Part shown: piece after piece, positions 9,843-53,900 of the stretch
How positions within the stretch are numbered: position 1 is the first letter of the stretch
How the letters are laid out: each line of letters begins with the position of its first letter
NCBI GenBank assembly: GCA_000004985.1
Contig: GG738898.1
Reading direction: 5' to 3' (one strand)
Source of the DNA: Naegleria gruberi
Taxonomy: Eukaryota
Length of the DNA stretch: 64,000 bases
Position numbers and translations under genes: made by a program
Notes under the pieces: generated by a model
Seen by the model: the letters and a program-made list of their open reading frames with translations, nothing else
What the model was told of the DNA's origin: nothing
Database searches by the model: none

Positions 9843-9885
9843 GCGTCGATGGTTTAGTGGTAGAATACGGCGTTGCGGTCGACGC
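9843..9885 (+). other. tRNA-Gly-like 5' half folded back on its own acceptor strand (tRNA-derived remnant or minihelix, not a canonical tRNA)
   Basis: GCGTCGA-TG-GTTTAGTGGTAGAATAC matches the acceptor stem plus D-arm of tRNA-Gly. After ~30 nt it runs straight into TCGACGC, the exact complement of the acceptor stem. No T-arm (GGTTCGA) is present. Confidence 0.25.
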
Positions 9886-10644
9886 AGTCAGAAGTAAATT
9901 TTTAGATAGCTGTATGCACTCTGCTCTTACTATTTTAGAAATCAGTTTCATGCATGTATTTACGTAAATGGGCAAATTTTTAGGTATTGAATAAGTATAA
10001 TTATTGAAAAAATAATCTCGGCTTGATCCTCATTTTTTACTGAAATAGTCCACCTCAAAAAAATTTTGAAAATGCATTTCATACTAAACTGCAAAAAGAC
10101 TACAGCACCACAGGTTCCCAAGTTGTCTCCAACCTCAGTACTGATGTGGCTCGACGATGCTTAACTTCTCAAATCGGACGGGATGAGGTGCATTCATCGT
10201 GATATGGCCGTAGCCATCCATTACATTAAAATATGCAATTTCAATACGTTTTACAATTTTGCAACAATGGTAACAACCAAATTTTGAGCTAATTCGTTTA
10301 AACTGTTGTACCCACCACCAAAGGAATAATAAAATATTGTAATTGAATATTCTATTCAATATTCCTTTTTCTTCCTTGCTTCCTTTTCGCCAGAAGGAAT
10401 TTTATGGCTTTTTTAAACCACCGTACATAAAAAAATAATTTGCCGCTCTTTTTGCACTCCAAAAGGCAAGTTGAATCTTAACTCTCGCATGATAAGCAAG
10501 TTGTATTGTTTTACTGTGTAGTTTAGCACAGTACTGCGGTGCCGGATTTTCTTCGAAGGCATGACCACAATGAGCTCATACCAATCAATGTAACCCAACA
10601 CAAACCTTTCGAAATATTCAACAACAATAGAAAAAAAAAATATC

Positions 10645-12012
10645 ATGACTACTTCCACCACTGTTCTTACATTAATGGAAGATATTTCCAATGATAATAC
10701 TGGTAGCAATGCTGCTGCTGCTCTTAGAAAGCAACCTGCTGTTAATGATGAATTGATTATGAAGAATGTTACTACTACTAGCAATAATAGTAACAAACTT
10801 ATTATCAAGGCAACTTATGAACCAACAGAGGAGTACTTGAGAAAGGTTAAATATGCTGATGAGAATCAACTCTTCCTTTCTGAGAAGGATACTCGTTTGG
10901 CTGTCAAGTCTATTAGAAATACCATCAAGAATGAAGAAGCTCGTTTGAGAAAGAGACATTCTTTCCTTCAATATCAAGATTTGTTAGGATTGACCATCTT
11001 TTTGACAAGTCTTTTGACTATTGTTGGTGTTTCTGCCTTGTATTTGAAGGGAAATCTTCATTGGGCTCTTGCTGTTCCTTTGCTTGCTCTTCCAATTTCT
11101 GTCTTGCATGAATTGGAGCATGATTTGATTCACAATTTGTACTTTAAGACTCACCAATGGGTTCAACATGTTATGTACTTTTTCATTTATCTTGCCAAAT
11201 GTCATGCTTTGCCATGGTACAGAAAGTATGTCCATCTTCGTCATCACGTAACTTCTGGTTCCAAGAGAGACTTTGAAGAAAGAGCTATTGGTGGCGGTTT
11301 GGAAGCTGGCTTTTTGAGATACTTGCTCACTACCAGTCCATGGGCTGTCTTTTTAGCAATTACAGATGTCAAGAGGGATAATCCACAAGATTTCAGTGTC
11401 TTTCTTGCTCTACTCACCAATGCACCTTCCATGATTGGTTTCACTGTTCTCTGGTTTGTATTCACTGCGTACTTGTTCATGTTTGGTGGTTTTACCTTCT
11501 TGTCCACCTACTTGCCAATTGCTTTCTGGCCTTTAGTTAGAGATTTGAGTGTTATTATTGTTTTACCAAATCTTGTTAGACAAACTTGTTTGAATTTGAT
11601 GGCCAGTTATTGTCACTATTATGGAGATGTTCCAGAAGGTGATGTTTTCTATCAAGGTTTGTATTCTTTTATTTTCATAACATTCCAATAACTTTTCATT
11701 ATTTACTTTATTCGAATCTAATTGTGAACAGGACAAGTTATTGATCACTGGTCCATGATTCCATTCCAATTATTCAGTTTCAACTTTGGATCCTCACACA
11801 TTATTCACCACTTTGTTCCAAATCAACCATTCTACATTCGTGAGGCAATCTCAAGAAAGGCCAATGCTGAAATGATTAAACAAGGTGTCAGAAATAATGA
11901 TTGGGGAATTGTTGCTCGTGCCAATCGTTTCCATGACAAATCCAAGCATTTGCTTGAAGCTGACAAGACTCAAGTGATCCCAGCTGATCAATGGGTCAAT
12001 TTGAAGTATTAA
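10645..12012 (+). CDS. membrane fatty-acid desaturase/hydroxylase superfamily protein (three His boxes); join(10645..11656,11732..12012)
   Basis: Exons join through a 75-bp intron (GTTTGT...TGAACAG, 11657..11731), phase-consistent. Product is about 430 aa with several TM helices and His boxes HELEHDLIH, HLRHH and HIIHH. Confidence 0.65.
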
Positions 12013-35198: not shown

Positions 35199-36192
35199 AT
35201 GGCTAATACTGTACTTGGTAGCACAACCGCTGCTAAACATGCAGTTGGTTTCAACCTTTCATTGTTGGTATGTAGATTTCACTTTGTTTATTGTCTGACA
35301 CTTGCTTGCGCACTATACTTTTGACATTTGGCGTTCAATAATTTTTCACACTCCATGCGAAAATGTTTAATATACACAAATATCTATTGCGAATTCGAAT
35401 TAACAGAAAGGTGGTACTATTACCCAAACAATTATTGGTGCAATTATTACAGCTTTGGTAATTGCTTCAACCGTTGCAACCATTATCTTGGTTTCTGTTG
35501 GTGTTGGTTACAATCCACCAGTTGCGTAAGTATTATCTAATTTATTCGAATTAATTTACGAATCTAAATTCTTTTTCACAGTGCCAATGACTTTGCTTCT
35601 ACTTATAAGAGAATGCCAGTCACTGTCGATGTACTCATAAATGATAACGATCCACGTGGTGGTAATCTTACTTTGACTCAAATTGTTAATCAACCAAAGT
35701 ATGGTACTGTCAAGATCCTTTCTCGTTCCCAAGTTGTTTATCAATCCATTGGTTCTTTCTCTGGAAATGACACTTTCAGTTATGAAGTTAGTAATTCCTT
35801 TGTTACAGCCAATGCTACTGTTACTGTTCAAGTTTTGAATAGACCTCCTCAAGCTGTTCCAATCTATAAGAAGATTTCCAAGAATGCTCATAAGGCCCTT
35901 GTCGATATTTTCAATTATGTTGGTGACAATGATGAAAGAATTAGTGATATCGATAATGATGTCTTGTATGTTACTGGCTTCGCTGATCAACAAGTTATCA
36001 GTGGTAATGCTCAAAGTTTGGGATCCATTGAAGTTGACACTTACAATGGTTTCTTGTACACTCCTGTTACTGGTTTCAATGGTATTGAAAAGTTTAATTA
36101 CACAATCTCAGATGGTAATGACACTGCTTCTTCAACTGTTACTGTTGAAGTTGAAAATGATGCTCCTATTGCCGTTGATGATTACTTTAGAA
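35199..36192 (+). CDS. signal-anchored protein with bacterial-type cadherin-like tandem repeats, partial (runs into assembly gap); join(35199..35267,35407..35525,35582..>36192)
   Basis: ATG in ttatATGG context after an A-run. Exon 1 (MANTVLGSTTAAKHAVGFNLSLL) is followed by a 139-bp intron (GTATGT...AACAG). Exon 2 is a TM helix (KGGTITQTIIGAIITALVIASTVATIILVSVGVGYNPPVA), then a 56-bp intron (GTAAGT...TCACAG). Exon 3 encodes ~95-aa repeats VDVLINDNDPRGGNLTLTQIVNQPKYGTVKI...GSFSGNDTFSYEVSNSFVTANATVTVQVLN and ...FNGIEKFNYTISDGNDTASSTVTVEVENDAPIAVDDY. Confidence 0.65.
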
Positions 36193-36558
36193 NNNNNNNN
36201 NNNNNNNNNNNNNNNNNNNNNNNNNNNNNNNNNNNNNNNNNNNNNNNNNNNNNNNNNNNNNNNNNNNNNNNNNNNNNNNNNNNNNNNNNNNNNNNNNNNN
36301 NNNNNNNNNNNNNNNNNNNNNNNNNNNNNNNNNNNNNNNNNNNNNNNNNNNNNNNNNNNNNNNNNNNNNNNNNNNNNNNNNNNNNNNNNNNNNNNNNNNN
36401 NNNNNNNNNNNNNNNNNNNNNNNNNNNNNNNNNNNNNNNNNNNNNNNNNNNNNNNNNNNNNNNNNNNNNNNNNNNNNNNNNNNNNNNNNNNNNNNNNNNN
36501 NNNNNNNNNNNNNNNNNNNNNNNNNNNNNNNNNNNNNNNNNNNNNNNNNNNNNNNNNN
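36193..36558. other. assembly gap (366 N)
   Basis: Run of n characters. A 39-bp island at 36559..36597 separates it from the next gap. Confidence 1.
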
Positions 36559-36597
36559 TCTGTAAACATGACACTTGTGTGAGTATTGACCATCCCT

Positions 36598-36802
36598 NNN
36601 NNNNNNNNNNNNNNNNNNNNNNNNNNNNNNNNNNNNNNNNNNNNNNNNNNNNNNNNNNNNNNNNNNNNNNNNNNNNNNNNNNNNNNNNNNNNNNNNNNNN
36701 NNNNNNNNNNNNNNNNNNNNNNNNNNNNNNNNNNNNNNNNNNNNNNNNNNNNNNNNNNNNNNNNNNNNNNNNNNNNNNNNNNNNNNNNNNNNNNNNNNNN
36801 NN
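36598..36802. other. assembly gap (205 N)
   Basis: Run of n characters. Confidence 1.
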
Positions 36803-37999
36803 GCGAAATTGTTGGGATGTATCCATTTTCGACAGTGGAAATGATTAGAATCCAATCTAAACCATTATCCTTAATGGTTGTCACACTAATTCTCCTACCA
36901 TCATATTGAAAAGATGAACTGTTAACTTTCAATGTCAAACTTTGAATATCATTAACTTTTTTTGAGTTATTTAATCGTAAAATATCACGTTTGTCAAGCT
37001 CGTTTGCTAATCGTTCGTTTCTACTATCTATTTCAGTCATTTGAAATCGTTTTCCATCTACTATATTCGGTTGAGAAAATGAATTCGAAACTAACATTCC
37101 ATTACGCTCAACCAAGACAATATCAATACTGTTGGTGTTCATGTCTAAGTGTCTACAGACTGTATTATTGAGTAATTGATCCATGTAGAATAGATCATAT
37201 TGCATTCCAATTATTTCTTCCACAAGAATCATTTCAGTTCCATTTTTAATAAATATTGGAAAATCCAATTTAGTAACTGCTGAAATTGATGGTGTGTTGA
37301 ACAGGTAGTGAATCCAAATATCTGTCCAAACGTATTGTGGGTATGTGTATTGATTAATATACCAAGGTCTTGTCGTGCAATCATACCCTCCTTTTTCAGT
37401 TGTCGTATTCGAAATTGGTTGAAAGTATTCGTCAAAATCAGACGATTTCAGTATGAGATCAGGTCCACTAGATTGAACTCTACTTCTATTCTTTGAAATT
37501 TCCAAACTAAACAATTGTTTTTGGCTATTTCCATAGGTTATTTCAGAGAAAGTCCTCGTAGACGAAATAATTGGTGCCAATTGACTCACCACTCGTTTAT
37601 AATTCTCAGTAAAATTCCCAATTTCATTGCCATAGATGTGTTGATGTAAAAAGAGAGAAGTTCTCAGATTGGATAAAATCTGTCTCGAAGTATGTACGAA
37701 ACCTTCCACCTCCCTTACAATATTTTCTTCTCTAATTTTGGAAGTGTTTGCAAGAGCTGTTTCTCCACTTTCCAATTTTGGATTTTGATTAAATTGTTGA
37801 AAACTAACCTCGAATAAATAATTATCAGCATGCACCCAATGCAGACGAATGTTTGTATGAGGAAAATTGAAAGGAAAATATTTTGAATGGTGTTACATTT
37901 CGAACAGGGAATTTTCCTTGGTGAAACAATTGTTTTTTCAATGTCGTCCGATTTTTCACAGGAGGACGATTCTGGTGGTGAGGTTATGCTTGTCTGCAT
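36803..37999 (-). CDS. signal-anchored protein with extracellular Cache (dCache-like) sensor domain, partial (3' end lost in gaps); complement(join(<36803..37767,37809..37999))
   Basis: ATG at 37997..37999 in a tacaaaaaaaATG context (track start 38059 is a GTG). Exon 1 is MQTSITSPPESSS... plus a TM helix (IFLSIFLIQTFVCIGCMLIIIY). A 41-bp intron (GTTAGT...GGAAAG, 37768..37808) is phase-consistent. Exon 2 encodes an extracellular domain carrying the Cache hallmark RPWY (CTTRPWYINQYTYPQYVWTDIW). The ORF runs into gap 36598..36802. Confidence 0.55.
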
Positions 38000-38524: not shown

Positions 38525-38881
38525 TCACTGATTACCACTACTCATCAATGAACTATTAGCACTACTACTACTACTGCTGCCACTATCCACTGACACCACT
38601 GACACCATTGCACTACTACTACTACTACTGCTGCTTGTTATCATTGAAGTGGAAGATTGATTTGGATTGATAATTGGCCGCACAACCATAGCTCCCATTA
38701 CAATTTGAGATTTTGGAGGTTTGTAATTAATTGTTGGCAAATGACTGATTGGTGTTAAGGGAGTAAATGCAATGCAATTTCCCTTTTCCAAATGAGATTT
38801 GAAATCAATCATGTTATCGACCAAGTAAACATGCTTCTTGCATGCTTTACAATATTTGGTAGAGTTTGATTTGGATTTCAA
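38525..38881 (-). CDS. Ser-rich ORF with C-x5-C...C-x2-C zinc-ribbon-like motif; status uncertain (separate small gene or terminal exon of the giant gene)
   Basis: Frame is open from the TAA that ends the post-gap remnant of the giant ORF (ENCEWLYECPLKFEKLKSKSNSTKYCKACKKHVYLVDN...SSSSSSSS...). The track start is a TTG; the first ATG lies at DNMIDF. Coding-like composition. Confidence 0.25.
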   Translation of the reverse strand: MKSKSNSTKYCKACKKHVYLVDNMIDFKSHLEKGNCIAFTPLTPISHLPTINYKPPKSQIVMGAMVVRPIINPNQSSTSMITSSSSSSSSAMVSVVSVDSGSSSSSSANSSLMSSGNQ

Positions 38882-38994: not shown

Positions 38995-41900
38995 TTAAAT
39001 GTTGAATTCTCCTTCTAAGAATGTGTAAATAATTNNNNNNNNNNNNNNNNNNNNNNNNNNNNNNNNNNNNNNNNNNNNNNNNNNNNNNNNNNNNNNNNNN
39101 NNNNNNNNNNNNNNNNNNNNNNNNNNNNNNNNNNNNNNNNNNNNNNNNNNNNNNNNNNNNNNNNNNNNNNNNNNNNNNNNNNNNNNNNNNNNNNNNNNNN
39201 NNNNNNNNNNNNNNNNNNNNNNNNNNNNNNNNNNNNNNNNNNNNNNNNNNNNNNNNNNNNNNNNNNNNNNNNNNNNNNNNNNNNNNNNNNNNNNNNNNNN
39301 NNNNNNNNNNNNNNNNNNNNNNNNNNNNNNNNNNNNNNNNNNNNNNNNNNNNNNNNNNNNNNNNNNNNNNNNNNNNNNNNNNNNNNNNNNNNNNNNNNNN
39401 NNNNNNNNNNNNNNNNNNNNNNNNNNNNNNNNNNNNNNNNNNNNNNNNNNNNNNNNNNNNNNNNNNNNNNNNNNNNNNNNNNNNNNNNNNNNNNNNNNNN
39501 NNNNNNNNNNNNNNNNNNNNNNNNNNNNNNNNNNNNNNNNNNNNNGAGTGTGGATAGGAACAGGATTTTCATAGTGATGATGTTCCATATGTAATTCCAC
39601 ATCTGCTGATGAAATTATTGGCTTGTGATGAGAATCATCTTCCACTTGTGGAGTTTGTGGAATTTGTTCCTCTCCTTCCCATGCTCGTTTCACATTGGCA
39701 ACAAATGTTGTTGGAATACCAGTTGCTTGTTGCATAGTACCATCCACTTTGAGTGTTCTTGTTGATGATTGCTTCTCAAAGAGGTTACTAATATTGTACG
39801 TAGTGGTGGTTGTGGTGGCTGTGGTAGCTGTGGTGGCAGGTCTTTCTGAAATACAGTCTTGTGCATTCAAACTTTCCAAATTAACTTTAGAATTAATTGG
39901 TAGGATACTATTGATAGAGTATTTGAGTGATCTTGAAGTTGCTGGTGTTGATGGTTTAGTTGATGATTGACTGTAAATAGAACTAGATGGTTGAATAACA
40001 TGATGGTCAATCAAGTCTATGGAATCAACAACTTGTTGTGGAACAACCGAATTCTTCTTAATCAGGTCCAAATTCAATTCCTTGATAGAAATGACAGAAT
40101 TTGCAGTGGATGGCCTCTTGTCTTCCTCTTCAGTTGGACGAGTTGGTGTAGATGGTATTTCTTGATCGGGATTATATTCCTTTCTAGGAATGTAAAAATT
40201 TCCTTCAATATCTTCATGACTTGGAACAGCAATTTCACTTTCGTCACCATAATGTTTCTTTGAAGGAAGCTTAATCTTTTGTGGTTTGAGGTCATCATGA
40301 GTAACATAGGACAAGTGACGAAGAAGTTTTGGAATAGGACGTGGTCGAATAGGTCTGACCGGTCCAGAACCTTCCTTTGGGTTGGTGGAACCATGCTTAT
40401 TCTTTGAATTCTTGGTATTTCTCTTTCTCATAAAGAAACATACAAGGAAAAGCAACAAGAACATGCAGGACAATCCACATACTATGGCTGCTGAAAACAC
40501 AGCTGCTGCAACGTACATGTACGAGTAGTGAGAAACTGTGGCAGTCTGGATGACAAAGACATTGGTAAAGTGAGAACATTTACAATAGGCATGTGTATCA
40601 TTCTTCAGTTGGAGGGAACATGAGTAGGTAACTTCAGTAGTTCCATCTAAAAAGTCTGCACATGCATAACTGTCTGTTTCCTCTGTAAAATCGAATGAAC
40701 TTGCTGTACTAGATGTAAGAGTACTTGTAGTATTGATGGGAATAATGTAAATGAGGCCATCTTCCTTCATAGGAACACTCAAGTCCGTGAATTCAACCGA
40801 GACAATTGGAGAAATAAGACTTGACGTTCTAGTTGTCGAGGCAGAAAGTTTTTGTGAAAGTTTTAGCTTTCTATCAAGAGAAAACACATCATCTGTTACT
40901 GTCATTACGTACGTGAATGGTTTTTTAACAAGTGATGATACCTTATTTTCAAAAACAAAGAAATTGTCTGGAATTAGAACAGAAGTAGATCTTTCAGAGT
41001 CAGTAATGATATTCTCATAATCATAAATGGTACTTTTACCCATAATCATGGAGAAGAATGGTCCTTTGGTTCTAGTAATAGTACGAGAAATGTACATGTC
41101 TCTGGTTTGAAGATTTGACGACATTTTGAGTGCGGATAATAATTTTCTAGAATTGGAAGTTTGGTCAGTAATGTACTGTCTTTCCATAATGTAGTCATGG
41201 ACAGATTCAACACAAGCATTCAATAGGTTTTGCACACCTGGAGATAATTTGATTTTTCCAGAATCTTGGGCAGTTGTTAAAAACCTATTCAGGGTGCATA
41301 ATGCCTCTGAAATTGTCTTGGAATTGAGGAAATGATAATTAACAAGGATTGAATCAACAGCAAATGAGAGTAGAGAAATGTAATCCTCATTCAAACCATC
41401 AGTCTTATTCATACTTGTAGTAATATCATTTAGGACAGTTAATTTGCTCTTTTGGATGTTAGAAAAATCTCTAATGGAGGTTTCACAATGAGTACCAATA
41501 TATCCATCAGCACACTTGCATTCGCCTGAAACTTCTACACCACTTATACATTGAAGATACTTGGTTGATCTTTCATTTATGGAACGCTTAAATGATAAAT
41601 CTCCAAGGGTTTCTTTCAATAGAACCGAATCTGTTCTAGAAGTAGAGGCAGATTGATAGATGCTCTTACTGAAATGACCTTCGGACATGTAGGTTGCACT
41701 CACCCCTGACCAAGTCGATACAATTTCTTGAACTTGTTCAATGTCTGTTACTGTTGGTTTGGAAATTGTAATATTCTTCTCCATAAGAGTTGTACCGCCT
41801 GTGACAGTATTGATAATTTCAAAGAAACAAGTCACTGTATCACCATAGAATGGTGCAGGTAGTTTGGAGGCAAACACTTCACCAAGGTTGTACAGATAAA

Positions 41901-44900
41901 TCTTGGATCCTGATCTATCATCCAAAAAGCCATACTTAAAGTCAATATTTTCATCTGGATTTTTACAATTGGTACAATAGAAATCAAATTCAGTTTCAAG
42001 TGCAATACCTGTTGATGGATTAATGGAGCAATCACATGGTTTTGGAATGGAAGCCATTGAGAATGCATACGCTGTTCTCACAGTAACACCAGAAGAAGTA
42101 TCTCTTGCTGCAATAGTAAGAGTATTGGTTGAACCCTGCACAAGCAAGGTTGTATCTATGACTCCTGTCACCATTTCTGCAGCACCAACTTGCTGTACTA
42201 TGAATTTAGACTTGTCAAGAATCATTCCATTGAGAACCCATGTGGTTTCTGTGGAGGAAGTTATTTCTGATGAGATTAAAGTTTGAACGGAAAGTTTTTG
42301 CCCAGGAATCAAGTATTGAGTAGTAGGATTAATATCAAGGATATTCACCACAGGTGGAATATTATTAAAGTAAACAATGGTGGACTTTTCCACAATTCTG
42401 TCAGTTTTGGAGACTCTTAATCGAAGTTGAAGTGATGAAGGAACAATCATGCTTCCAAACAGGGCTGAATCAATGGTGAATAGCTTGGCTTTTGTGCTTG
42501 AAATGGATCGAAGCAAACTGAGCAAATCAGGATTGCCACTATCTAAGCAACTCCATGTCCATGTTTCCACTGATTCATAATTGATGGCATCCTCTGGATC
42601 ACTGTATTCCACTTTAATGACTGTATATGTCTTTCTGGATTCTAATTGAACAAGATTTAGATAGAGGTCTGGAGATTTTGTTGTCAATGTCACAGTAGAG
42701 GTTGAGGAGAGTGTTGGATTTGAAGCATAGTAAGCTTTCACTGTGAATGAGTAGCTCACACTTCCAAAAGTTCTCAATCTAGAAATGTACAAATTGTTAA
42801 ACTTGTCTACAGTGAATTCTATGGCAGGCCCTGATGTTTGAGCCCAATCAATTGTAACAGATTCTGATGCACATGTTGACTGAGTAACAACCTTCTTGAT
42901 TGAAGAAGGAAAATCTGTTGTGAGCTTTTCAACCAAGGATGGAGCCATCACTAAAGGAAGAGGTTTCTCAGACTTGACAAATTCCCTCGAATATACATAA
43001 GGACTAATAGTATTCAATGAAGGGCTATGGACCTGAAGCATCATTCTATATCTTCCAGCTGGAAGTGATGCTTCCAACTTGATAATAGCTTGATTGGGAT
43101 AACTATTAGATACAATTTCAAAGGTAGTTGCATCGAGTAAGGACCAATAATAGCTCAATTGCTTTCCATCATTGGAGTGGCTCAGAGTGCCATCTACACT
43201 AATTTCATCACACGAACTAAACATGTCTATATTGGCCATACTAATGAAGGCAGTTGGGGTGTTATTCTGTAAGGGCATGACAACTGGAATGGAAATATAT
43301 TCCTCTCTGGTTGTTAAGTTATTGTATCTATCGTAGACGAGTGTATTCAATTTGATTGATTGACCACTTTCTAATGTATAATCAATTGAACCAAAAGTGA
43401 TCATGAAAGCATAGCTTGCCTTATTCAAATATTTACATTTCACATTAGAGAAGGAACCATAAACATTTCTGGACCTATCTTCTGAACTGATAAGATTCGA
43501 GCACGGAATTTCCACACCAGTAAATGCTGTTGGGAGGTTGAGTTTAAATACTAATCCAGAAAAATCGGAAAGAATAGTGGCAGGTCCTTCAATCTTGGTT
43601 GCACAATTAATTCCATAATAGCCATTCAAACAAGTGTCACATAAGGAGCCATTCCAGAATCCACGTTCAAAACTTGAATAACATTTGCAAGTCAAATCAG
43701 ATTTACATTCTCCATTATTGAAACAATTATTTGCACAAGTACTATTTACAACAGTTGTTGGAGTACTGCTTGAATTATTGCTAGTATTGCTAGTTGCATT
43801 GTTTGAAATCGGTGGAACTATAACCTCGTTACTTGTGTTGTTTGTTGGAGTGGTTGAGTTTTCATTGGGAATGGTAATGTTTGGATGTAATTGTTCTGAA
43901 CAATTAAATCCCAAGTATCCATCCTTACATTTACAAGTGTCAAAATCAGTACACTGACCATTACCAGAACATACTAACTCAGATGTGGATTTAACAGAAA
44001 AGCAAGTTGTGAAATTACAGTTTGGTCCAAAATATGGCAAGTTACAGTCACAATGATTGAAAGATTCACACCTACCACGGGATTGACAAACAAGGGATTC
44101 ATTACTCAATACACCAAAACAACTTGTCACAGAGCAATCACTTCCAAAGCTATTTGGTTCACATTCACAAGTGTCCAAGTCTGAACAAACTCCTCTTTGA
44201 GAACAAACAGTCATATCTAACTTGGATTTACCGTAGCAATAAAAGTGAGAGCAATCTGGGCCAGAGTATCCTTTGTTGCAGACGCACGTATCATGACTTG
44301 TACAACTACCACGGCCAGTACACGTCTCAGAGCTATTGGACGATTTTGAAAAACATGTAGTCAACTCGCAATTCATTCCAAAATAGTTTTCAGCACATTC
44401 ACATTGGTCGAACTCAACACATTTTCCTCTGGAATTACACACAGAAGAGGAATTTGATGGAATATTGTGGCATAGAGGAATTTCACAATTAGATCCAGTA
44501 TATGAAGAATTGCAAGAGCAATGATTTAAGGTGGAACAATTTCCTCTTGAATTGCATACATTTGGATCATGAGAAGAAATTCCAAAACATGTAGTGTACT
44601 GACACCAAGGTCCTGCATACTCTGATGGACAATGGCACTCATCAACCTTTGAGCAATTTCCAACAGAATTACATACTTTGGAAGAGTTTGAGGCAATTCC
44701 AAAACATGTAGCCAACTCGCAATTTCTTCCTGTATACTTTTCATTACATGTACAATTATCTGGTGAATGGCAAGGGCCGTGATAGCTACAAACTGAAGAA
44801 TTACTATCCTTAATACCAAAGCATAGAGAACCAAAGCAATTATCACCATAAGAGCCGTGGTTACAAATACATGTATTCGAATCGGTGCATGAACCATGTC

Positions 44901-47900
44901 CAGAGCAAACACTGGATTGGTTATTCATTACACCAAAGCACTTGTAATTTTCACAATTGGATCCATAATAACCTGATTTACATTCACACAGATTGTAATC
45001 TTTACAAGAACCATGCGCAGAGCAAACATAAGAATCATTAGAAGCAATACCTGCACAATAGCTCTTTTCACAGTTGGTTCCAAAGTAGTGAGCTGAACAA
45101 GAACACTTATCGGCAGAGATACATTGGCCATGAGAGGAACAAACTGAGGAAACATTACTTAAAACTCCATTACATTGTGTTACTTCACAATGCTTGCCAA
45201 AATAATCCTTTAAACATGAGCAAGTCTCAATGTCAATACAAGTGCCCCTTCCTGAACAAACTTTAGTATCGGTACTGAGTGTACCATTGCATTTGAATAG
45301 TTCACATTTGCTTCCTGAGTAACCACTCTTACATGTACAGTTATTGAAATTAGAACAGGTACCATGAGAAGAACAAACTGAAGAGCTATTAGAAAGAGTT
45401 CCATAACATGAAGAAACCTGACAAGTTGAACCATAGTAATTTGCTGAGCAGATACAATTATTGAATGAGCTGCAATAACCATGTGAGTTACAAACACTTG
45501 GAGATGTTGAAAGTTGAGAGCCGCAGGTTGTAATCTCACATCTAGACCCCGAGTAATGATCTTGACACGTGCAAGTGTTTGGGGATGTACAATTTCCATG
45601 TGAGCTACACACAAGAGATGAATTGCCTGTTGTACCATTACATATTGGAATTTCACACCTACTTCCCAATGAATTTGATGAACAAGCACATGTATCAGTA
45701 TCTACACATGTTCCATAACCAGTGCACACTTTTGGAGATGTATTCTTGATGCCAAAACAATAGTGTTCTGAACAATTTTGCCCAAAGTTACCTTGAAGAC
45801 AAGAGCAATTATTAAACTCTCCACAAATTCCCTTTCCAGAACAAACAGAGCTAATGTTTGATAGGAATGAATAGCAAGAAGTAATTTCACATTGACTTCC
45901 CATGTAATTATTCAAACATGAGCATGTATTGAATCCAACACATGTTCCCCTTGATGAACAGACAGATGTATCATTACCAAGTTTTCCGTAACATTTAGAG
46001 ATGGAACAATTATTTCCGTAATAATTATTGGAACAAACACAAGTGTCAATATCCACACATGTTCCTCTTCCAGAGCAAGTCTTGTTCGAATAGTAAGGAA
46101 TGTCGTAGCACTTGTAATCAGAACATGTGCTGCCATAGTAGGTGTGATTACATTGACAATTATTGTAACTAATGCAGGAACCTCTTCCAGAGCATACATA
46201 CTTGCTGTTAGAGAAAACTCCAGAACAAGTAGTCAATTCACACCATTGTCCCAAATAGCCAGTTTTACAAAAACAAGTATCAGGTGCTATGCAACTACCA
46301 TGCGAATTACATACAGTGGTATCATTGGAAAGTGTTCCATTACATTGAACCACACTGCAATCCATTCCAGAATAGCCAATATTACATTTGCAAGTATCAG
46401 GACTAGTGCATGATCCTTGACCACTACAGACAAAGGTAGAATTGGATGAAGAAATTCCATAGCAACTTGTCTCCTCACAATACTCTCCAAAATATCCACT
46501 ATTGCATTCACAAACTTCGTTGGCAATGCATGAACCCCTTCCTGAACAAACAAAAGATTCATTATTACTTAGCATGCCATTGCAAATGTAGAGCGAACAA
46601 TCTGTTCCATAAGCTCCATAATTACACTTACAGCTGTTGTAGTCGATGCATTGTCCATTTCCAGAACATGTACTATTGTCATTGGAGTTGATACCATAGC
46701 ATTTTGTAAAGTTACAGCTGTTGCTTAAATATGGCTCAAATGGATCGAAACTCTTTGGTGGTTCAAATATGACACTCTCTAAAATAACATACGAGTTGAG
46801 AGCCCATATAGATCCAGCAACTGTTCCATGCACGTATAGATAGTCATCCTTGGTGGCTGATATAACAGTACCAGCTATTGGTTTTGTGGAAGAACCCCAC
46901 ACTTGTGATGAAGATCCAACCACCCAGTATAAATTTCTATGTGAGGCACAATTTAAAAAGGTAATACTTGAATTTGCATAATAGAGTGACGGAACCTTAA
47001 TTACTACTGGCTCTGTTCCAATAATAACAATATTTTGAGTTGGTTTTACAAACCAATTTGTTAAAAAACAAAGAACAGCTCCATTTCTAATGATTAGAGT
47101 TGAAGAGACATTGGTTGAGGTTAAGTATTGTGTACATGCCATATTTTGAATGAGATCAATTGATTTTGTCATTTCATCAACAAGCATCTGGCCAATTGGC
47201 TCAGAGGTCAAAACAATTGAAGCATTCTTATTTGGCAAGTACGGGAAGTATGAATATTCTTGTAATTCTAAAACCATACTAGCTGTCAATAACTGATACT
47301 CTCTTCCTATTGAGGAAATGACATGTTTTGAGCAGATCACTTTGTAACCGGCGAATATATCAGTCTTGAGTTTTTCGCAATTTTCACCTCCAAATCTATT
47401 TCCACATTGGCAAGAATTGAAATCAACACATTTTCCATTTCCAGAGCAAACATTGCTATCATTGGATGGGATACCGTGACATGAATTAATTTCACAGAAA
47501 GGACCATCATAATTAAGAAAACATTTGCAAATGTTGTAGTCTGTACAAGTACCATGTGAGCTACAAACTGAGGAAACATTTCCAAGAGTTCCATTACATG
47601 TTGTAATAGAACAATTTAAACCTAATCTGTTAGCTCCACATTGACATGTGTCTGGACTTGTGCATGAGCCATGGCCAGAGCACACTGAACTATTAAAATT
47701 ACTCACTCCAAAACAGTCATAATTGGAGCAATGGTTTCCATAGTATTTGTCTGAGCAGGTGCAATTTTCAAAAGAAGAACATTTTCCATGAGTAGAGCAA
47801 ACCAAAGAATCATTTGAAAAGATGTTTCCACATTTTGTTATATCACACTCCTGTCCATAGTAATGTTCTTCACAAGAACAATTGTTAAATGGCCAACAGA

Positions 47901-50900
47901 TTCCTCTTCTGTGGCATACCTCACTGTGATTGGAGAGAATTCCAAAACACAATGTCATTTGACAGAATTCTCCAAAATAATTTGAGGAACAATTGCACAT
48001 ATCATTAGCTGTACACGATCCATAACCATTGCAAACATTAGTGTCATTACTAAAAGTTCCATTACATTTAGAAATTTCACACTCATATCCAATGTAATGC
48101 TCAAAACAAGAACATGAATCTTTTTGAGAACAATTTCCTCTTCCACTACAAACAAAACTATTATTCATATTACTCACACCAAAGCATTCGAAATATTCAC
48201 ATTCAGAACCCGAATATCCAGGTTGGCAAGAACAATTATTGAAATCATTGCACTGCCCAAATCCCTTACAAACGAGTGAGGAGTTTTGTTGAATACCAAA
48301 GCAGGTTACAAACTCACAATATTTTCCGTAATACCCTTCTTTGCATTGGCATGTTTCTGGTGCAATGCAAGTTCCTCTTTCTCCATGACATTCTCCTATC
48401 GTACCATTACAAAGAGGTATTTCACACTCTGATCCTCCGTAGCCCAAAGTTGAATTGCAAGAACAGTTATTGGATGATATGCATTTACCTCGTTCATTAC
48501 AAACAAGTGGAGAGCTGTATGAATAATTTCCACACACATAGTCAGGCGCAATTTCCAAAATCGTAGTATTGGTACTGTTTGAAGGTTCTGAAATATTAAC
48601 CGAAAATGAACAATTCCCACACAAAGTTTGATTCCAATAAGTTTCATTGAGGGGATTGCTATTATTCGAAACTGTAATGTTTTGCTGCGTATTGGTACTG
48701 TTCATAGTAATGGTTTCATTTGAGAATAGAGTGGAAGAATTTAAAGTATAGTTTTCTGAGGGTGTACTATTGAAACCTAAAGTAGTACTATTGGTTTCCA
48801 CACATGATGAACAATTAGCTGTTGTATTGGAAGAAATACTCTCATTATAGATTGTAGAGTTGGATATTTCTAATGTGCTACTACTGGTTTGATTGTTAGA
48901 GATTTGATTATCAGAATTGTCTTCATGTTTGGTTTGATTGTTAGAATGGCTGGTTTGATTTTCACTTGAGGAGGAAAAATTCGATAGAATATTTGTGGAA
49001 TTATTTGTGAGAGTTTCATTCAAGGTTTGGTTGAATGTTTGAGAATTATCTTCCAATTCTCTTCCAAATTTGTGCGCTGAGTTGTTCAAAGTGCAATTAC
49101 TTCCCACTGGACAGTTTTCTAAAGCTGTCGCATTTTCCAGCAGAGAGCTAGTTGTCTCATTGAGTGATGAGGTATTAAGAGTGGTGGAGTTCTGAGAGAA
49201 TACAGTTCCATTCACTGTGTTATTTGACTGGAAAGAAGTGTTCCACGAAGCAATTTCACTACTGGAATTAGTTGTGCTCTCAAAAGTAGTGTTGAACGTG
49301 AACGTATGATTCGACAGAATTCCAGTGCTGTTCTCCAGACCTGTTTGATTGAAAATAATTGATGAGTTCATGCTGTTATTACAATCGGGAGATGTTACAT
49401 TGAGAGAGGTATTGATCCAAATCGTGCTGTTTCCTCCTTCATACGTATCAGAACTGTTGTAATGTTGAAGGATTGTTCCATTTGAGGTACTAGCATTATA
49501 ATTTTCACTGCTTGTAGTATTTTCCCAAACGGATGAATTGGAAAAGATAGTCGATTCGTTAGAGTAGGAAGTGAAATTCGATTGTGTGCCATTCCCCATG
49601 AACCATTCAGTTGAATTAGTAACAGATGTACTGTTCTTGTCTAAGGTTTCATTTGTACCATAAAGACAAGTATCACATGTGATGTTCAACACTGTGTAAT
49701 TGGAAAAGTTTGAAGAGTTACTAGTCAAACTCTGATTGGTGGCCAATTCGGTGTTGTTAAGACGAACATTTGAAAAATTTCCTGTAGAATTGCTTCCTAC
49801 TTCTAAGGAATTGTTGGTTACATTATTTGTACTGGTAGAATTATCAGAAATGGTGGTATTAGTATTAGTTCCAGTAGAATTATCCGAATCAGTTCCGTTT
49901 GTTTGACCAACAAAGTTAGTTCCATTATTTGATTCAGTAGTATTACTTGAAGAGGTGCCATTTGATGGAGTATTATTAATAGTTGAATTAGTGTTTGTTT
50001 CATTAGTATAAATAGTTCCATTATCCAATTCAGTAGAATTAGAAGAGAAAGGAATGGTTTCATTGAACGAAGTATGTTCGTTTGTAAGATTGTGATTTGT
50101 TATATTACTTTTGGTATTTTCTAACTTGGTTTGATTTACCATATTTGTAGCATTGAGCTGTGTATTGTTTGCTAAATTCGATGAACTATTAAGGGACAAG
50201 CTATTTGTCTCATTTGAAAGGATTGTGGAATTTATGACAGTTTGATTTTCTCCTTGAAATATTTCAGTTACTGTCCCATTATTGAATGGAGAGGTACTAT
50301 TCTCATAACTTTGGTTGTAAAAGCTTTGATTAGTGACAACGGAATAGTTTACAGTGGTGTGATTAAAGTCGTGAGTTATGTTGCCATGTACTACACTACT
50401 GTTGCTCACTGAATTATTCTCAGCCCTTTCAGTTATATTTAACACTGTAGAATTTCCTTCAGATTCACTAACTTTTCCTTTTGTTGGTATTGAATCATTA
50501 AGATTTTCACTGCCATTCTTTGAAATAGGATTACTTGAATTTGTAAGTTCCGTATTGTTTTCTGCTATTAAAGAAGTATTAGAAATACTGTGGTTTGTTT
50601 TTTCATGGTTTGTATTATTCAAAATGGTGCCATTAATTGTTTCATTCAAAGATATAATAGAGCTGTTACTACTTGTAAAGTTATGCATTTCTGTATCATT
50701 AAGCTGAGATCTGGTAATATTATTATAAATAGACTCATTAACAAATGATATCTGTGTTGCATTAAGAGATACAGAATTGTTAGACAATAGAGTATTATTC
50801 TCTTCGGAGTATCTCGTAAAGTTAGCATGGGTTTGATTAAGATTAGTACTATTTATCAGTGTGGAATTATTTTCATTCACTGTTCTATTCAATTCAGAAT

Positions 50901-53900
50901 GGTTATGTGGAGGTGTTTCAGTGCTGTTTTCTACAACTTTGTTTGAACTATTGCTGAATGTTGAATTCCACTGGTCAGTGACATTGAACGAAGTATTTGA
51001 AAGTGGATTTGTTGAATTGAGTAGACTTGAATTTGATACAGTACTTTGGTTGCCAAGGGAGGAGCTGTTCCCAAAGGTTTCTGTTCTGTTTACAAATTCG
51101 TTTGTGTTGTTATCCAAAGAGTTTGATCCTGTTATGTTACAGTTTGTATTATTTAAAGCAGCTGTAGTATTACTATTCTCTGTTGCATTAGCAAATCCGA
51201 AAGTGCCATTAGATAAGGAATTGTTGAAAGTTGCAGTATAACCCAAGTTTAGGGAATTGTTTGAATTTGTATTGGTGATGTTTCCTAATTGTGTACTTTC
51301 TGTGTAATTTAAATCATTCGTAGAATTAGAAGAAGTGAAATTCTGATTTGTACTGTTATTGGTATGTTCATTACTTGTATGGTTTGTTGTTGTGTTATTT
51401 TCCACCAATGAATTATTTAGTGCTGTAGTGTGATTTTGAACAAAAGTCTCATTGTTCAAGGTTTGTGTGTTATTTACACCAAATAAAGTCTCATTATTCC
51501 CTGATTTTCCTTCCAAAGTTTGATTCCTGGTTTCGTTTAAAAAACTTGAATTAGTGATAGCAGTATTATTTTCCAATACTGAAGATTGATTGTGTAACTT
51601 TGTGTTATTCTCAAATAGAGTGGTATTAATTGTCTGAGAATCGTCGATCATAGACGTTGCGTTAGTGTTAATTGTGAGATTCTCATTATTAACTGTAGAG
51701 TTTGTTTCAATACTGGGTACAGATGAGCTATTCTGATTCTCAGTTTGGTTGTACCTACTATGAAGAGACTCGTTCCCTATCATTGTTTTGTTTTCATTTA
51801 TCAGGGTGTCATTATTTACAAGAATTGTAGAACTAATAGATCCATTGAGGTACGTATCATTGAGTTGAAAGGTAGATTCATTAAGGAAGTTTAGACTTGA
51901 ATTCAAATTTGTATAGTTCACAGATATTGAAAGTGTTTGATTTTGTGATTTGATATTGACAAAAATGGAACTGTCATTCCTCAGAGTTTCGTTCAATGTT
52001 ACATTACCAACTGTGGTGACTTTGGTAGAATTTTCTGAAGAATTTCCATTCAAGAAACCGGTTTGGTTACTTATTGCCGTTCCATTTTCGGCAGGCATTG
52101 TTTGCTTTTCGAAAGTTGTAGTGTTGTTTTCAGCAAAACTATTATTTTCGGGCCTTGTGGTATTTTGAGTGGAAACTGTAATAGACATATTGCTAGAAAT
52201 TTCTCTGGTGATGTTGGAGTTTGTCATATTAGGATTAGTATTTGCCAAGTTATTAACCACTGAGCCGTTTTCCTGCAACGTTTGATTTCTTGTTTCCAAG
52301 CTGTCATCAGATCTAGATGTCGAGTTACTAGCAATACTGGTATTTGTTATTGAAATAGTTGTGACATTACTTTGTTCAGTGTTGTTCCAATTGGTTGAGT
52401 TCATTGTTTTGTTGCTTTCAAGGTTTTCTAGTGTTAAGTTCTTTGAAGACGTTTCATTAAGAAAAACGGTTTTGTTTGTAATAGTATCTTGTGAAGAATT
52501 ACCTCCGTTAGTATTATTGCTAGTGGTGATATTGAAAGATTCTGTGCGATTGATAAATAAATCAGAAGTGTTGTTTAGCACAAGCAATGAACTGTTAAGG
52601 TTAGTGGAGTTCTCAAGTGTTATGGTTGAATTGATTGAGATTGTTGAATCATCCAAAACAAACTGGTTTGTATTATTCAAATCTGTTGAATTACTTGTTT
52701 CATTCACCAATAATACGGAGGTATTAGAATAGCTATTGGAGAGTGTGTTATTCTCAATAGCATCAGTTGTATTTAAGCCTGTTGAATTCACAATTGATAA
52801 ACCTGATTCGTTAGAATGGTTTGAATAGTTATCAAACTTTGAGCTGTTGCTCCCGGTTAATGAAAAGTTGGCTACATCATTAAAAGTTGAATTATTAACA
52901 AGACCATGTGATTGACCCGAGGGACCGCTAATTGTTTGGTTTTCTGGGAAATGACTAGTGTTGAGCCTTGTTGTATAATTTGAATCAAGAGTGTTATTAG
53001 AAATAATGTCTGAACTAGCATTATTGGAAATTCTTGTACTATTCCCAGTGGTCATGGTACAGTTATTTGAATCATTAGAAGTAATATTTGAAACAGTACT
53101 ATTTGAAATTGTTGAATTGTTCACTGTTTCATTTCCTTGCTTAGTAGCTATGGTTGCATTCAAATCAACAGAGGAGTTGGATGGAACACTTGGAATATTA
53201 GATTCGTTTGAAAAATTTGTAATATTATCAAACCTAGAGCTGTTTCTCCCATTCAAAGTTGAGTTTGTAAGGTTATTAAATGTTGAATTCTCGAATGTCG
53301 ATAGGTTACTCCCACTCAGTGACGAGTTGGTAACATCTTTTAAGGTTGAATTATTAACTGAAGTAATGTTGGTTTCATTCTCAATACCAAATGATTGATT
53401 TGAGGGACTACCACTATTTGATAATGTTTGGTTTTCGGAGCTATAACTCGTGTTCACACTAGTTGCATTTTTTGAATCAACAGTGTTATTATTAGTCATG
53501 TTTGAACTAGTATTAGATAGTATTGTATTGTTAAAAGTTTCATTTCCTTTTTGTATAACAGTTGAATTCAATTCTAAAGTAGTATAGTATATACTTGTAT
53601 CATTTTGTTCAATAGATGAATTATTTGATAAGACGGTCTCATTTAGAATAACAGATCGATTATTCCAAGTACTGTCACTTGCATTTGTTTCATTTAGTGT
53701 GACAGTTACGTTATATGTCAGACTTGTATTGAAACTGGTCTCATTCTTAATTTGTCCATAAGAATTGTTCATTGAGGATGTTTCATTTGGATGAATTAAA
53801 GTCTCATTAACATTTACATCTGATTGGTTTGATGCTGTGTAAGTACTATTCCTTCCTGGACCAGTAGAGTTATTGAAAGTCGTCTCGTTGTTAGATGTTG

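What the first reader, a model, noticed from the sequence alone, without database searches (positions are those of the whole stretch)
36803..37999. Convergent neighbour encodes a membrane-anchored Cache (dCache-like) extracellular sensor domain; output domain lost in gap
The ectodomain carries the Cache hallmark RPWY plus flanking aromatic residues, and follows a signal-anchor helix made by a 41-bp intron splice. Cache domains are small-molecule sensors that usually feed kinases, cyclases or channels. Whatever lies C-terminal is hidden in gaps 36193..36802. Adjacent to the cyclase-rich neighbourhood, this could be a novel ligand-sensing receptor.
Basis: partly seen in the sequence, partly recalled or inferred. 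Interest (0 to 1): 0.55.

Follow-up and report, generated by a model that had tools for sequence, protein, structure and literature searches.

The report
Naegleria double-Cache receptor adenylate cyclase gene
This is a gap-broken, apparently unannotated Naegleria gruberi gene for a membrane receptor whose outside part is a bacterial-type double-Cache small-molecule sensor and whose inside part, mostly hidden in the assembly gap, is a class III (most likely adenylate) cyclase; this receptor type is already catalogued in this species, so the find is real but ordinary.

Summary

The output domain is not entirely lost. A 39-bp island between the two N-runs (36559..36597) encodes GMVNTHTSVMFT on the correct strand and in frame. 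This is the first strand of the class III cyclase domain in every relative (11/12 identical to N. lovaniensis; 0 of 20,000 shuffles match). All full-length relatives, from N. lovaniensis, N. fowleri, Willaertia magna and one metagenomic contig, are TM–dCache–TM–linker–cyclase proteins with intact adenylate-cyclase-type catalytic motifs.

The window is N. gruberi. dCache_1–cyclase proteins are already listed for this species (Upadhyay et al. 2016). The gene is therefore a new member of a known kind. Its ligand is unknown: it has the carboxyl-binding half of the amino-acid motif but not the amino-binding half.

The parts
37809..37999 (-). Exon 1. It holds the start codon (37997..37999), a 40-aa cytoplasmic N-terminus with juxtamembrane cysteines (IPCSKCNTIQN), and the signal-anchor TM1 helix IFLSIFLIQTFVCIGCMLIIIY (37879..37814).
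   Evidence: Exon 1 matches the N-terminal TM regions of P0005, P0006 and P0009 and of L001.
37768..37808 (-). A 41-bp GT..AG intron, inserted after the second base of the Ser64 codon.
   Evidence: L001 has a 40-bp GT..AG intron at the same codon position, with conserved flanking protein (IIIYS|SGETALANTSKIREEN against IIIQS|SGNTAINTSSNIREEK) and a diverged intron sequence.
36803..37767 (-). Exon 2, open to the gap edge. It encodes the 322-aa extracellular double-Cache (dCache_1-type) sensor domain: a long stalk helix, a membrane-distal PAS-like module and a membrane-proximal module.
37359..37385 (-). YDCTTRPWY in the membrane-distal module. It corresponds to Y121, R126, W128 and Y129 of PctA, the carboxyl-binding half of the published amino-acid-binding motif. 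The amino-binding half is absent: the Y144 equivalent is W215 (within 37314..37328) and the D173 equivalent is Q253 (within 37191..37214).
   Evidence: Alignments, coordinates, motif definition in PMC8915833.
36837..36863 (-). GLDWILIIS, the conserved last strand of the membrane-proximal Cache module (GLDW is nearly invariant from the bacterial kinases to this family), lying just before TM2.
   Evidence: The family's GLDW-to-MFTD spacing is fixed at 128-129 residues.
36598..36802 (.). An assembly gap of 205 N. By inference it hides TM2 and the ~75-aa linker. The nominal length is about 93 bp (31 codons) shorter than the family's fixed spacing requires.
36559..36597 (-). An island of real sequence between the two gaps. 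Codons 36596..36561 encode GMVNTHTSVMFT, which is the first beta-strand of the class III cyclase catalytic domain and ends one residue before the first metal-binding Asp. At the nominal gap length it is in frame with exon 2.
   Evidence: tblastn: 8/12 identical to P0001, 9/12 to P0006 and 11/12 to P0012, collinear and on the same strand. 0 of 20,000 shuffles reach the score in any frame. Frame check.
36193..36558 (.). An assembly gap of 366 N. By inference it hides the rest of the cyclase domain and the C-terminal tail (at least ~261 aa, or ~786 bp, in relatives), as well as the 3' end of the convergent + strand gene. The gap must therefore be underestimated by at least ~420 bp, unless the gene is truncated.
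   Evidence: No other cyclase exon of this family lies elsewhere in the window.

Best explanation
The locus is a Naegleria gruberi gene for a type-II-anchored, two-TM receptor cyclase. It belongs to a Heterolobosea-restricted family of bacterial-type dCache_1–TM–linker–class III adenylate cyclases. No gene model for it was found.

**Proposed mechanism.** The protein forms a homodimer. A small molecule binds the membrane-distal module of the extracellular double-Cache domain. The conformational change travels through the C-terminal TM2 helix and a ~75-residue helical linker that is not a recognisable HAMP domain. This alters the geometry of the two cytoplasmic class III catalytic domains, which form their active sites at the dimer interface, and so changes cAMP synthesis.

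**Shown here.**
- The gene structure, the TM1 anchor, the double-Cache fold and homology.
- The start of a cyclase domain downstream, on the same strand and in frame.
- The complete architecture and intact catalytic motifs in every full-length relative.

**Inferred.**
- TM2, the linker, the rest of the catalytic domain and the C-terminal tail of this particular gene, all of which lie in gaps.
- ATP rather than GTP as substrate. This rests on the Lys (DKFIGD) and Thr (YTAIGD) substrate-position residues in relatives and on their best matches to CyaB, photoactivated cyclases and CyaC.
- The transmembrane signalling mechanism, by analogy with bacterial dCache receptors.

**Ligand.** It is unknown. 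The pocket keeps the carboxyl-binding Y/R/W/Y residues but lacks the amino-group-binding Tyr and Asp, so a canonical amino-acid ligand is unlikely.
For: - **Organism.** Two window ORFs are exact matches to N. gruberi proteins NAEGRDRAFT_72607 and _72613.
- **Gene model.**, with the intron position conserved in L001.
- **Homologues of the ectodomain alone.** P0001 at 2e-68. The exhaustive profile search finds 23 relatives, 9 at E <= 1e-10. Named members come from N. lovaniensis, N. fowleri and Willaertia magna. Every full-length member carries PF00211 C-terminally.
- **Distant hits.** They are dCache_1 proteins above the gathering score (51-76 bits), matched over their dCache_1 regions. Shared motifs run across the whole domain: YDxxxRPWY, W[ST]xI[YFW], ERxGxLV, GLDW.
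- **Output domain.** The island peptide GMVNTHTSVMFT. The family's GLDW-to-MFTD spacing is fixed at 128-129 aa and the island is in frame.
- **Catalytic motifs.** [ST]x[MI][FI]TD, [IV]DKFIGDG and FxYTA[IL]GDxVNxxxRLE are intact in 7 of 7 relatives. The best solved matches are bacterial adenylate cyclases: CyaB 3r5g at 4e-25, OaPAC and CyaC. The nearest non-Heterolobosean relatives of the cytoplasmic half are bacterial adenylate cyclases, many with the same dCache_1 + cyclase architecture.
- **Literature.** N. gruberi dCache_1 + Guanylate_cyc proteins D2V3A4 and D2VLR9, described as a 'bacterial-type adenylate cyclase' (PMC4822843). A TM/HAMP/Cache1/cyclase subfamily related to N. gruberi genes (PMC6366073).
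Against: - Only 12 residues of the cyclase domain of this gene are visible. None of its catalytic residues can be read.
- The nominal gap (366 N) is at least ~420 bp too short to hold the rest of the domain plus the end of the convergent gene. Either the gap is underestimated or the gene is truncated or rearranged.
- Single-sequence Pfam dCache_1 is far below the gathering score.
- No HAMP domain is detected in the linker of any relative, so the transduction module is uncharacterised.
- No expression data are available.
- The closest named relative at the island, N. lovaniensis P0012, is itself a 5'-truncated copy in a non-syntenic locus. This shows that members of the family do decay.
- No N. 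gruberi protein covering this locus was retrieved. That fits an unannotated gene but would also fit a gene that annotators rejected.
Confidence: 0.85

Rival explanations
1. The gene is a decaying or truncated copy (pseudogene). The sensor exon and a scrap of the cyclase survive, but the gene is disrupted inside the unsequenced region and makes no functional receptor.
For: The 366-N gap is too short by at least ~420 bp for a full-length C-terminus plus the neighbour's 3' end. No gene model was retrieved from databases that do hold other N. gruberi proteins of this window. A related copy in N. lovaniensis (P0012) is clearly 5'-truncated.
Against: 385 codons are open (P ~ 8e-12 by chance), and family-invariant residues are retained throughout. 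The island is in frame and 11/12 identical to a relative. Scaffold N-runs are size estimates, and gaps are a sufficient reason for a missing gene model.
Confidence: 0.1
2. The sensor is a canonical amino-acid receptor (dCache_1AA), as the RPWY hallmark suggests. It would couple extracellular amino acids to cAMP.
For: Y192, R197, W199 and Y200 reproduce PctA Y121, R126, W128 and Y129 exactly (PMC8915833). Amino-acid chemoreceptors (PctA/B, Mlp24/37, Tlp3, CtaA) are among the best fold and profile matches.
Confidence: 0.12
3. The output is a guanylate cyclase, or a catalytically dead regulatory cyclase-homology domain, rather than an adenylate cyclase.
For: The substrate-defining and catalytic residues of this gene itself lie in the gap. 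Pfam PF00211 does not discriminate AC from GC. Database names of the relatives say 'Guanylate cyclase domain-containing', but this is only the Pfam family name.
Against: All seven relatives examined carry Lys in DKFIGD and Thr in YTAIGD, plus both metal Asp, the Asn and the Arg. That they mark adenine specificity and catalytic competence is my reading from general knowledge of class III cyclases. Their best solved matches are adenylate cyclases.
Confidence: 0.1
4. The link between the sensor exon and the cyclase island is an assembly artefact. The 39-bp island would belong to a paralogous cyclase gene and was placed in the scaffold gap by mistake.
For: The island is very short and flanked by Ns on both sides. 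N. gruberi has other cyclase genes, including dCache-cyclase paralogues.
Against: The strand, order and reading frame all agree with exon 2. The peptide matches this specific subfamily (LGMVN.HTSVMFTD in P0012). Every full-length relative of the sensor has exactly this domain at a fixed spacing.
Confidence: 0.05

Closest known systems
N. gruberi dCache_1–Guanylate_cyc proteins D2V3A4_NAEGR (745 aa) and D2VLR9_NAEGR (894 aa), listed by Upadhyay et al. 2016 (PMC4822843) as a 'bacterial-type adenylate cyclase' with a Cache domain
   Same: Same species, same domain architecture (extracellular dCache_1 followed by a class III cyclase), and the same inferred bacterial origin.
   Different: They are different loci. 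No protein containing this window's sequence was retrieved. The window gene is so divergent that single-sequence Pfam misses the gathering score. I could not fetch the D2V sequences, so the degree of paralogy is untested.
Heterolobosean family members: N. lovaniensis C9374_010876 (P0005) and C9374_004051 (P0012), N. fowleri FDP41_008636 (P0029) and FDP41_006369 ('Cache domain-containing protein', P0027), Willaertia magna ABK040_005169 and ABK040_010255, and the metagenomic P0001
   Same: 28-49% identity across the ectodomain. The same TM1, a fixed 128-129-aa GLDW-to-MFTD spacing, the same cyclase motifs, and the conserved ...TEK C-terminus. The intron position is identical in L001.
   Different: None is a demonstrated positional orthologue. 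The P0012 locus is not syntenic and is 5'-truncated. Ligand-pocket residues differ between members. The window copy is incomplete because of the gaps.
Bacterial dCache_1–class III adenylate cyclases (for example M. tuberculosis Rv2435c, cited in PMC4822843, and many metagenomic examples such as P0069, P0096 and P0116 from Ruegeria)
   Same: The same architecture and the same catalytic-domain type. The cytoplasmic half is 31-42% identical to bacterial adenylate cyclases.
   Different: This is a eukaryotic gene with a spliceosomal intron, a cytoplasmic Cys-rich head and a lineage-specific C-terminal tail. No detectable HAMP domain is present.
Ligand-binding domains of bacterial chemoreceptors PctD, PctA/B, Mlp24/37, Tlp3, TlpQ and McpU (solved dCache structures)
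   Different: The output is a cyclase rather than a methyl-accepting signalling domain. Sequence identity is only 9-16%. The Y144/D173 amino-binding pair is missing.
P. aeruginosa CyaB (3r5g) and the cyanobacterial or photoactivated class III adenylate cyclases (OaPAC, bPAC, CyaC)
   Same: They are the closest solved catalytic domains to the family's output (E = 4e-25 to 2e-16), and they share the DKF[IV]GD and YT.[IL]G..VN.ASRLE motifs.
   Different: Their sensor modules differ (MASE2, BLUF and others). The comparison was made with relatives, because the window's own domain lies in the gap.
Animal alpha2delta calcium-channel subunits and CACHD1 (eukaryotic dCache_1 proteins)
   Same: An extracellular dCache_1 fold in a eukaryote. 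They appear as weaker matches.
   Different: Those carry a VWA insertion and have no enzymatic output (PMC8915833). The window protein has neither feature and resembles bacterial receptors instead.

Membership tests
dCache_1 (Pfam PF02743; Cache superfamily) | Single-sequence match to the Pfam model above its gathering score | tested here: not met
   E = 0.018 and 15 bits against a 45-bit cut-off. The match does cover aa 131-374 against profile positions 36-240 of 240.
dCache_1 (Pfam PF02743; Cache superfamily) | Sequence homology to true dCache_1 domains at profile level | tested here: met
   A profile built from the window and P0001 ectodomains only hits proteins whose matched regions are dCache_1 above the gathering score: P0013 at 9e-9, and P0015, P0016 and P0018 at 4e-7 to 3e-5. 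The mixed profile A3 hits the PctA ligand-binding domain at 2e-14. A3 includes bacterial rows, so that last value is not independent.
dCache_1 (Pfam PF02743; Cache superfamily) | Fold: a long N-terminal stalk helix followed by two PAS-like alpha/beta modules | tested here: met
dCache_1 (Pfam PF02743; Cache superfamily) | Extracytoplasmic location between two TM helices, with TM2 directly C-terminal to the domain | tested here: inconclusive
   TM1 is present, at 37879..37814. TM2 lies in the gap at 36598..36802. It is present at the equivalent place in all relatives (SSPxLLxxSIxLIxLGT...).
dCache_1AA (amino-acid-binding subclass; Gumerov et al. 2022, PMC8915833) | N-terminal half of the motif: Y121, R126, W128 (carboxyl contacts) | tested here: met
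   Y192-D-C-T-T-R197-P-W199-Y200.
dCache_1AA (amino-acid-binding subclass; Gumerov et al. 2022, PMC8915833) | C-terminal half of the motif: Y144 and D173 (amino-group contacts) | tested here: not met
   The Y144 equivalent is W215 (WTDIW). The D173 equivalent is Q253 (IIGMQYDL). The mapping rests on sequence alignment to PctA. It was not checked on model coordinates.
Class III nucleotidyl cyclase (Pfam PF00211) | Catalytic domain present C-terminal to the sensor | tested here: inconclusive
   Only the first 12 residues are visible (island 36596..36561, GMVNTHTSVMFT). The match is highly non-random (0 of 20,000 shuffles), and it is collinear and in frame. All full-length relatives have PF00211 at 64-76 bits.
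Class III nucleotidyl cyclase (Pfam PF00211) | Two metal-binding Asp, substrate-defining Lys plus Asp/Thr, and transition-state Asn and Arg | not testable with these tools
   These residues lie in the gap for this gene; the island ends one residue before the first Asp. They are intact in 7 of 7 relatives. The assignment of roles to residues comes from general knowledge of class III cyclases together with the alignment to CyaB.
HAMP-linked receptor cyclases | A HAMP domain between TM2 and the cyclase | tested here: not met
   There is no Pfam HAMP match, even at E <= 10, in the TM2-to-cyclase linkers of five relatives. The window's own linker lies in the gap.
Heterolobosean dCache–cyclase family | Shared gene structure and family-specific motifs: a Cys-rich head, TM1, a phase-conserved intron, SGE..., ERNG, GLDW and the LGMVN.HT..MFTD junction | tested here: met
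   The family's C-terminal ...TEK tail cannot be checked for the window because it lies in the gap.

The most novel reading that the evidence does not exclude
The receptor may define a eukaryotic dCache_1 ligand class that keeps the carboxylate clamp (Y/R/W/Y) but replaces the amino-group contacts (Tyr to Trp, Asp to Gln). Such a sensor would detect a non-amino carboxylate, for example a bacterial organic acid or another prey-derived metabolite. It would convert the signal directly into cAMP in an amoeboflagellate, without G proteins, through an uncharacterised non-HAMP linker. If so, the Heterolobosean family, with pocket residues that vary between paralogues, would be a diversified set of one-component 'smell-to-cAMP' receptors acquired from bacteria.
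Probability: 0.15. Interest if true: 0.5.

Novelty: new member of a known kind. Interest (0 to 1): 0.25.

Why it matters
The practical value is modest. The work rescues a gene that annotation apparently missed because of assembly gaps. It shows that the 'lost' output domain can be read from a 39-bp island. It also defines a small family of bacterial-type dCache receptor adenylate cyclases restricted to Heterolobosea (Naegleria and Willaertia), which includes members in the pathogen N. fowleri.

These are among the few eukaryotic proteins in which a bacterial-style extracellular small-molecule sensor is wired directly to second-messenger synthesis. That makes them tractable candidates for learning what free-living amoebae sense chemically.

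The architecture was already catalogued for this species in 2016, so a specialist would not be surprised by it.

Tried and rejected
- **Single-sequence searches.** Pfam and PDB sequence searches with the protein alone gave only sub-threshold or meaningless hits.
- **Named-database search.** With the single sequence and with the family alignment it returned one protein each time. Its word index is patchy, so absences there are weak evidence. The last search, with the cytoplasmic half, found no N. gruberi fragment carrying the missing 3' half.
- **Other exons in the window.** tblastn of six relatives against the whole window found no other exon of this gene and no paralogue.
- **Synteny.** The N. 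lovaniensis P0012 locus is not syntenic, and that copy lacks the distal sensor half. P0012 was therefore rejected as a positional orthologue.
- **HAMP.** Searched for in the linkers and not found.
- **Sequon enrichment.** N-glycosylation sequons as topology evidence looked suggestive for the window (8 in the ectodomain, 0 before it) and for P0001 (8 against 1), but not across the other relatives. I do not rely on it.
- **First structure submission.** It was redone with exon 2 only.
- **First shuffle test.** It timed out and was redone in vectorised form.
- **'Cyclase-rich neighbourhood'.** Rejected after scanning all ORFs of at least 120 aa.

Full report
**1. What is in the sequence.**
The window is AT-rich eukaryotic DNA with six N-runs. 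A gene lies on the minus strand between 36803 and 37999. ATG 37999 is the first ATG after an upstream in-frame stop.

- Exon 1 (37999..37809) encodes a 40-aa hydrophilic head and a 22-residue hydrophobic helix, IFLSIFLIQTFVCIGCMLIIIY.
- A 41-bp GT..AG intron (37808..37768) shifts the frame.
- Exon 2 (37767..36803) stays open for 322 codons until the assembly gap.
- A 344-codon stop-free stretch has a chance probability of about 8e-12 at this composition.
- RPWY lies at 37370..37359.

**2. The splice is real.**
The only close homologue in the first search, P0001 (46% identity, E = 2e-68), comes from a 5.2-kb metagenomic contig, L001. Upstream of its truncated prokaryote-style gene call, L001 has the same arrangement. 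An exon ends ...IFLTIFLLQTIVCVASLLIIIQS, a 40-bp GT..AG intron follows at the identical codon position, and the next exon begins SGNTAINTSSNIREEK. The window reads ...IIIYS | SGETALANTSKIREEN. The protein is conserved across the junction while the intron sequence has diverged. Exon 1 also aligns with the N-terminal TM region of the full-length relatives P0005, P0006 and P0009.

**3. Organism and neighbourhood.**
Two window ORFs are exact matches to Naegleria gruberi proteins: NAEGRDRAFT_72607 and NAEGRDRAFT_72613, on a 310-kb scaffold. The neighbours are ordinary eukaryotic genes:

- Ku80, F-box/LRR proteins and a Big_9/cadherin-like repeat protein that converges on our gene and also runs into the gap;
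- a teneurin-type EGF-repeat ORF of more than 5,000 aa upstream;
- an ACAD10/11-like enzyme, a DOCK-type GEF, a PDK1-like kinase, a MutY-like glycosylase and a microbial-type PARG.

Only one other cyclase was found, a PAS-PAS-cyclase at 6055..8052 about 30 kb away. 'Cyclase-rich neighbourhood' is an overstatement.

No protein containing this gene's sequence was returned from databases that do hold the other N. gruberi proteins. The gene seems to lack a model, most plausibly because the gaps break it.

**4. Is the ectodomain a Cache domain?**
Pfam dCache_1 gives E = 0.018 and 15 bits against a gathering score of 45, although it covers residues 131-374 against profile positions 36-240 of 240. 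Three stronger lines of evidence settle the question.

- *(a) Profile homology.* A profile built only from the window and P0001 ectodomains was searched against 1.84 billion representatives. It found 23 proteins. The distant ones (P0013, P0015, P0016, P0018 and others) are bacterial-type sensor histidine kinases. Their matched regions are dCache_1 domains above Pfam's gathering score, at 51-76 bits.
- *(b) Shared motifs.* The alignment shows shared motifs along the whole domain, not just RPWY: YDxxxRPWY, W[ST]xI[YFW], ERxGxLVxxS and GLDW[ILV].

That first alignment contained bacterial dCache_1 rows, so I repeated the prediction with the nine Heterolobosean sequences only. It gave pLDDT 79.7, pTM 0.80 and the same order of secondary-structure elements. 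The top 50 Foldseek hits were again all dCache.

**5. The output domain.**
The 'gap 36193..36802' is really two N-runs with 39 bp of true sequence between them (36559..36597). On the minus strand this island reads GMVNTHTSVMFT.

| Relative | Sequence at this point |
|---|---|
| P0001 | GMVNSRTTIMFT-D |
| P0006 | GVVNANTSVMFT-D |
| N. lovaniensis P0012 | GMVNIHTSVMFT-D (11/12 identical) |

This is the junction into the first beta-strand of the class III cyclase domain. None of 20,000 shuffles of the island, translated in all six frames, reaches the observed score anywhere in the C-terminal 388 residues of P0001.

The island is on the right strand, in the right order and in frame with exon 2 at the nominal gap length. 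The family's GLDW-to-MFTD spacing is fixed at 128-129 residues. That implies the 205-N run is about 93 bp (31 codons) too short.

Every full-length relative of the sensor carries PF00211 C-terminally, at 64-76 bits. The gene therefore continues into a cyclase domain. At least ~786 bp more are needed to complete it, whereas the second N-run is 366 bp and must also hold the end of the convergent gene. Either that gap is underestimated by at least ~420 bp or the gene is truncated. No further exon of this gene lies elsewhere in the window.

**6. The family.**
Named members come from Naegleria lovaniensis (C9374_010876 and C9374_004051), N. fowleri (FDP41_008636, and FDP41_006369, which UniProt already calls 'Cache domain-containing protein') and Willaertia magna (two genes). 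There are also unnamed metagenomic and Logan sequences.

All seven members examined keep [ST]x[MI][FI]TD, [IV]DKFIGDG and FxYTA[IL]GDxVNxxxRLE. By alignment to CyaB and by general knowledge of class III cyclases, these motifs hold both metal-binding Asp residues, the adenine-specifying Lys, a Thr at the second substrate position (as in the CyaB, CyaC and soluble-AC group), and the transition-state Asn and Arg. A protein carrying all of these residues in one chain is expected to act as a homodimer.

The best solved matches are bacterial adenylate cyclases: CyaB at 4e-25, then OaPAC, bPAC and CyaC. Outside Heterolobosea, the nearest relatives of the cytoplasmic half are bacterial adenylate cyclases, many with dCache_1 + cyclase architecture.

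Pfam detects no HAMP domain between TM2 and the cyclase. The segment just before the catalytic domain (F[MIV][KH][YF][IV]P.[ED][IL]V) resembles, from memory, the signal-transducer element that precedes many class III catalytic domains. I did not test this.

**7. Ligand.**
The published amino-acid-binding motif of dCache_1 domains consists of Y121, R126 and W128, which contact the carboxyl group, and Y144 and D173, which contact the amino group. Numbering follows PctA, and D173A abolishes binding (PMC8915833).

Using the PctA alignment and the family alignment, the window protein has the first half intact (Y192, R197, W199, plus Y200). It has Trp at the Y144 position and Gln at the D173 position. 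It therefore fails the dCache_1AA definition. These pocket positions also vary among paralogues (W/F/Y and Q/G/H; P0005 even lacks R and W), as expected for a family with diversified specificities. An invariant Asp sits two residues after the D173-equivalent position. I could not test on coordinates whether it reaches the pocket.

**8. Comparison with what is known.**
Upadhyay et al. 2016 state that in Naegleria the Cache domain occurs in 'a bacterial-type adenylate cyclase'. Their supplementary table lists D2V3A4_NAEGR and D2VLR9_NAEGR as dCache_1 + Guanylate_cyc proteins. Ebenezer et al. 2019 describe a TM/HAMP/Cache1/cyclase subfamily related to N. gruberi genes. The architecture is thus already known in this species.

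What is new here is limited to four points:
- this particular, divergent and apparently unannotated locus;
- recovery of its output domain from the inter-gap island;
- delineation of a Heterolobosean subfamily with a conserved intron, a fixed linker length and a conserved C-terminal tail;
- the half-motif state of its ligand pocket.

**9. Verdict.**
The gene is a receptor cyclase of a known kind, with confidence about 0.85. The main residual doubt is whether this copy is intact across the unsequenced ~1.1 kb.

Noticed in passing
Relatives P0001, P0005, P0006, P0008, P0009, P0012, P0029 (C-termini); the window equivalent would lie in gap 36193..36558: Every member of the Heterolobosean dCache-cyclase family ends in a conserved tail, ...[FY][ST]L[TN][LVM]xEK-COOH (for example LTLTEK, LTLHEK, LTVNEK, LNMTEK). 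A conserved extreme C-terminus suggests a sorting or docking signal, but its function is unknown.
   Followed up: partly
Window 37880..37912 (minus strand); L001 ~430..480; P0006 and P0009 N-termini: A cluster of cysteines lies just before TM1 on the cytoplasmic side: IPCSKCNTIQN in the window, CCRPSPCACNSLQT in L001 and CCPAI[HN]SLQN in Willaertia. These are candidate palmitoylation sites. This was not tested.
   Followed up: no
L002 (N. lovaniensis PYSW02000001.1) 1976..10000 and 10001..11485: The N. lovaniensis relative C9374_004051 (P0012) begins in the middle of the membrane-proximal Cache module (MERNGLLVS...). The 8 kb upstream has stops in all frames, no called genes and no similarity to the window's first 282 residues. 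It is a 5'-truncated copy in a non-syntenic locus, and possibly a pseudogene annotated as a protein.
   Followed up: partly
Window 6055..8052 (minus strand): A PAS-PAS-class III cyclase (665 aa) identical to N. gruberi NAEGRDRAFT_72607. It is the only other cyclase in the window.
   Followed up: partly
Window 38995..54945 (minus strand): A single open reading frame of more than 5,000 codons, interrupted only by the N-run at 39035..39545. It is packed with teneurin-type EGF repeats (EGF_2 and EGF_TEN at E = 1e-75 or better) and lies immediately upstream of the receptor gene. The metagenomic homologue contig L001 also carries a teneurin-type NHL hit next to its receptor gene, which may hint at conserved linkage.
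   Followed up: no
Window 35613..36192 (plus strand): The convergent neighbour encodes bacterial-type Big_9 / cadherin-like repeats (E = 2e-22) and also runs into the gap. Both genes therefore lose their 3' ends in the same unsequenced stretch.
   Followed up: partly
Window 8505..9725 (minus strand): A microbial-type poly(ADP-ribose) glycohydrolase catalytic domain is split across two adjacent ORFs (8505..9131 and 9153..9725). An intron is the likely cause, though a frameshift is possible.
   Followed up: no
Window 38545..38640: A run of ACT/GCT trinucleotide repeats (a Ser/Thr- or Ser/Ala-rich low-complexity tract, depending on strand) lies in the region between the receptor gene and the giant EGF gene.
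   Followed up: no
Window 55565..58121 (minus strand): An aminoglycoside-phosphotransferase-like domain and an acyl-CoA dehydrogenase lie in adjacent ORFs. This is the ACAD10/11-type fusion architecture, apparently split by a short intron.
   Followed up: no
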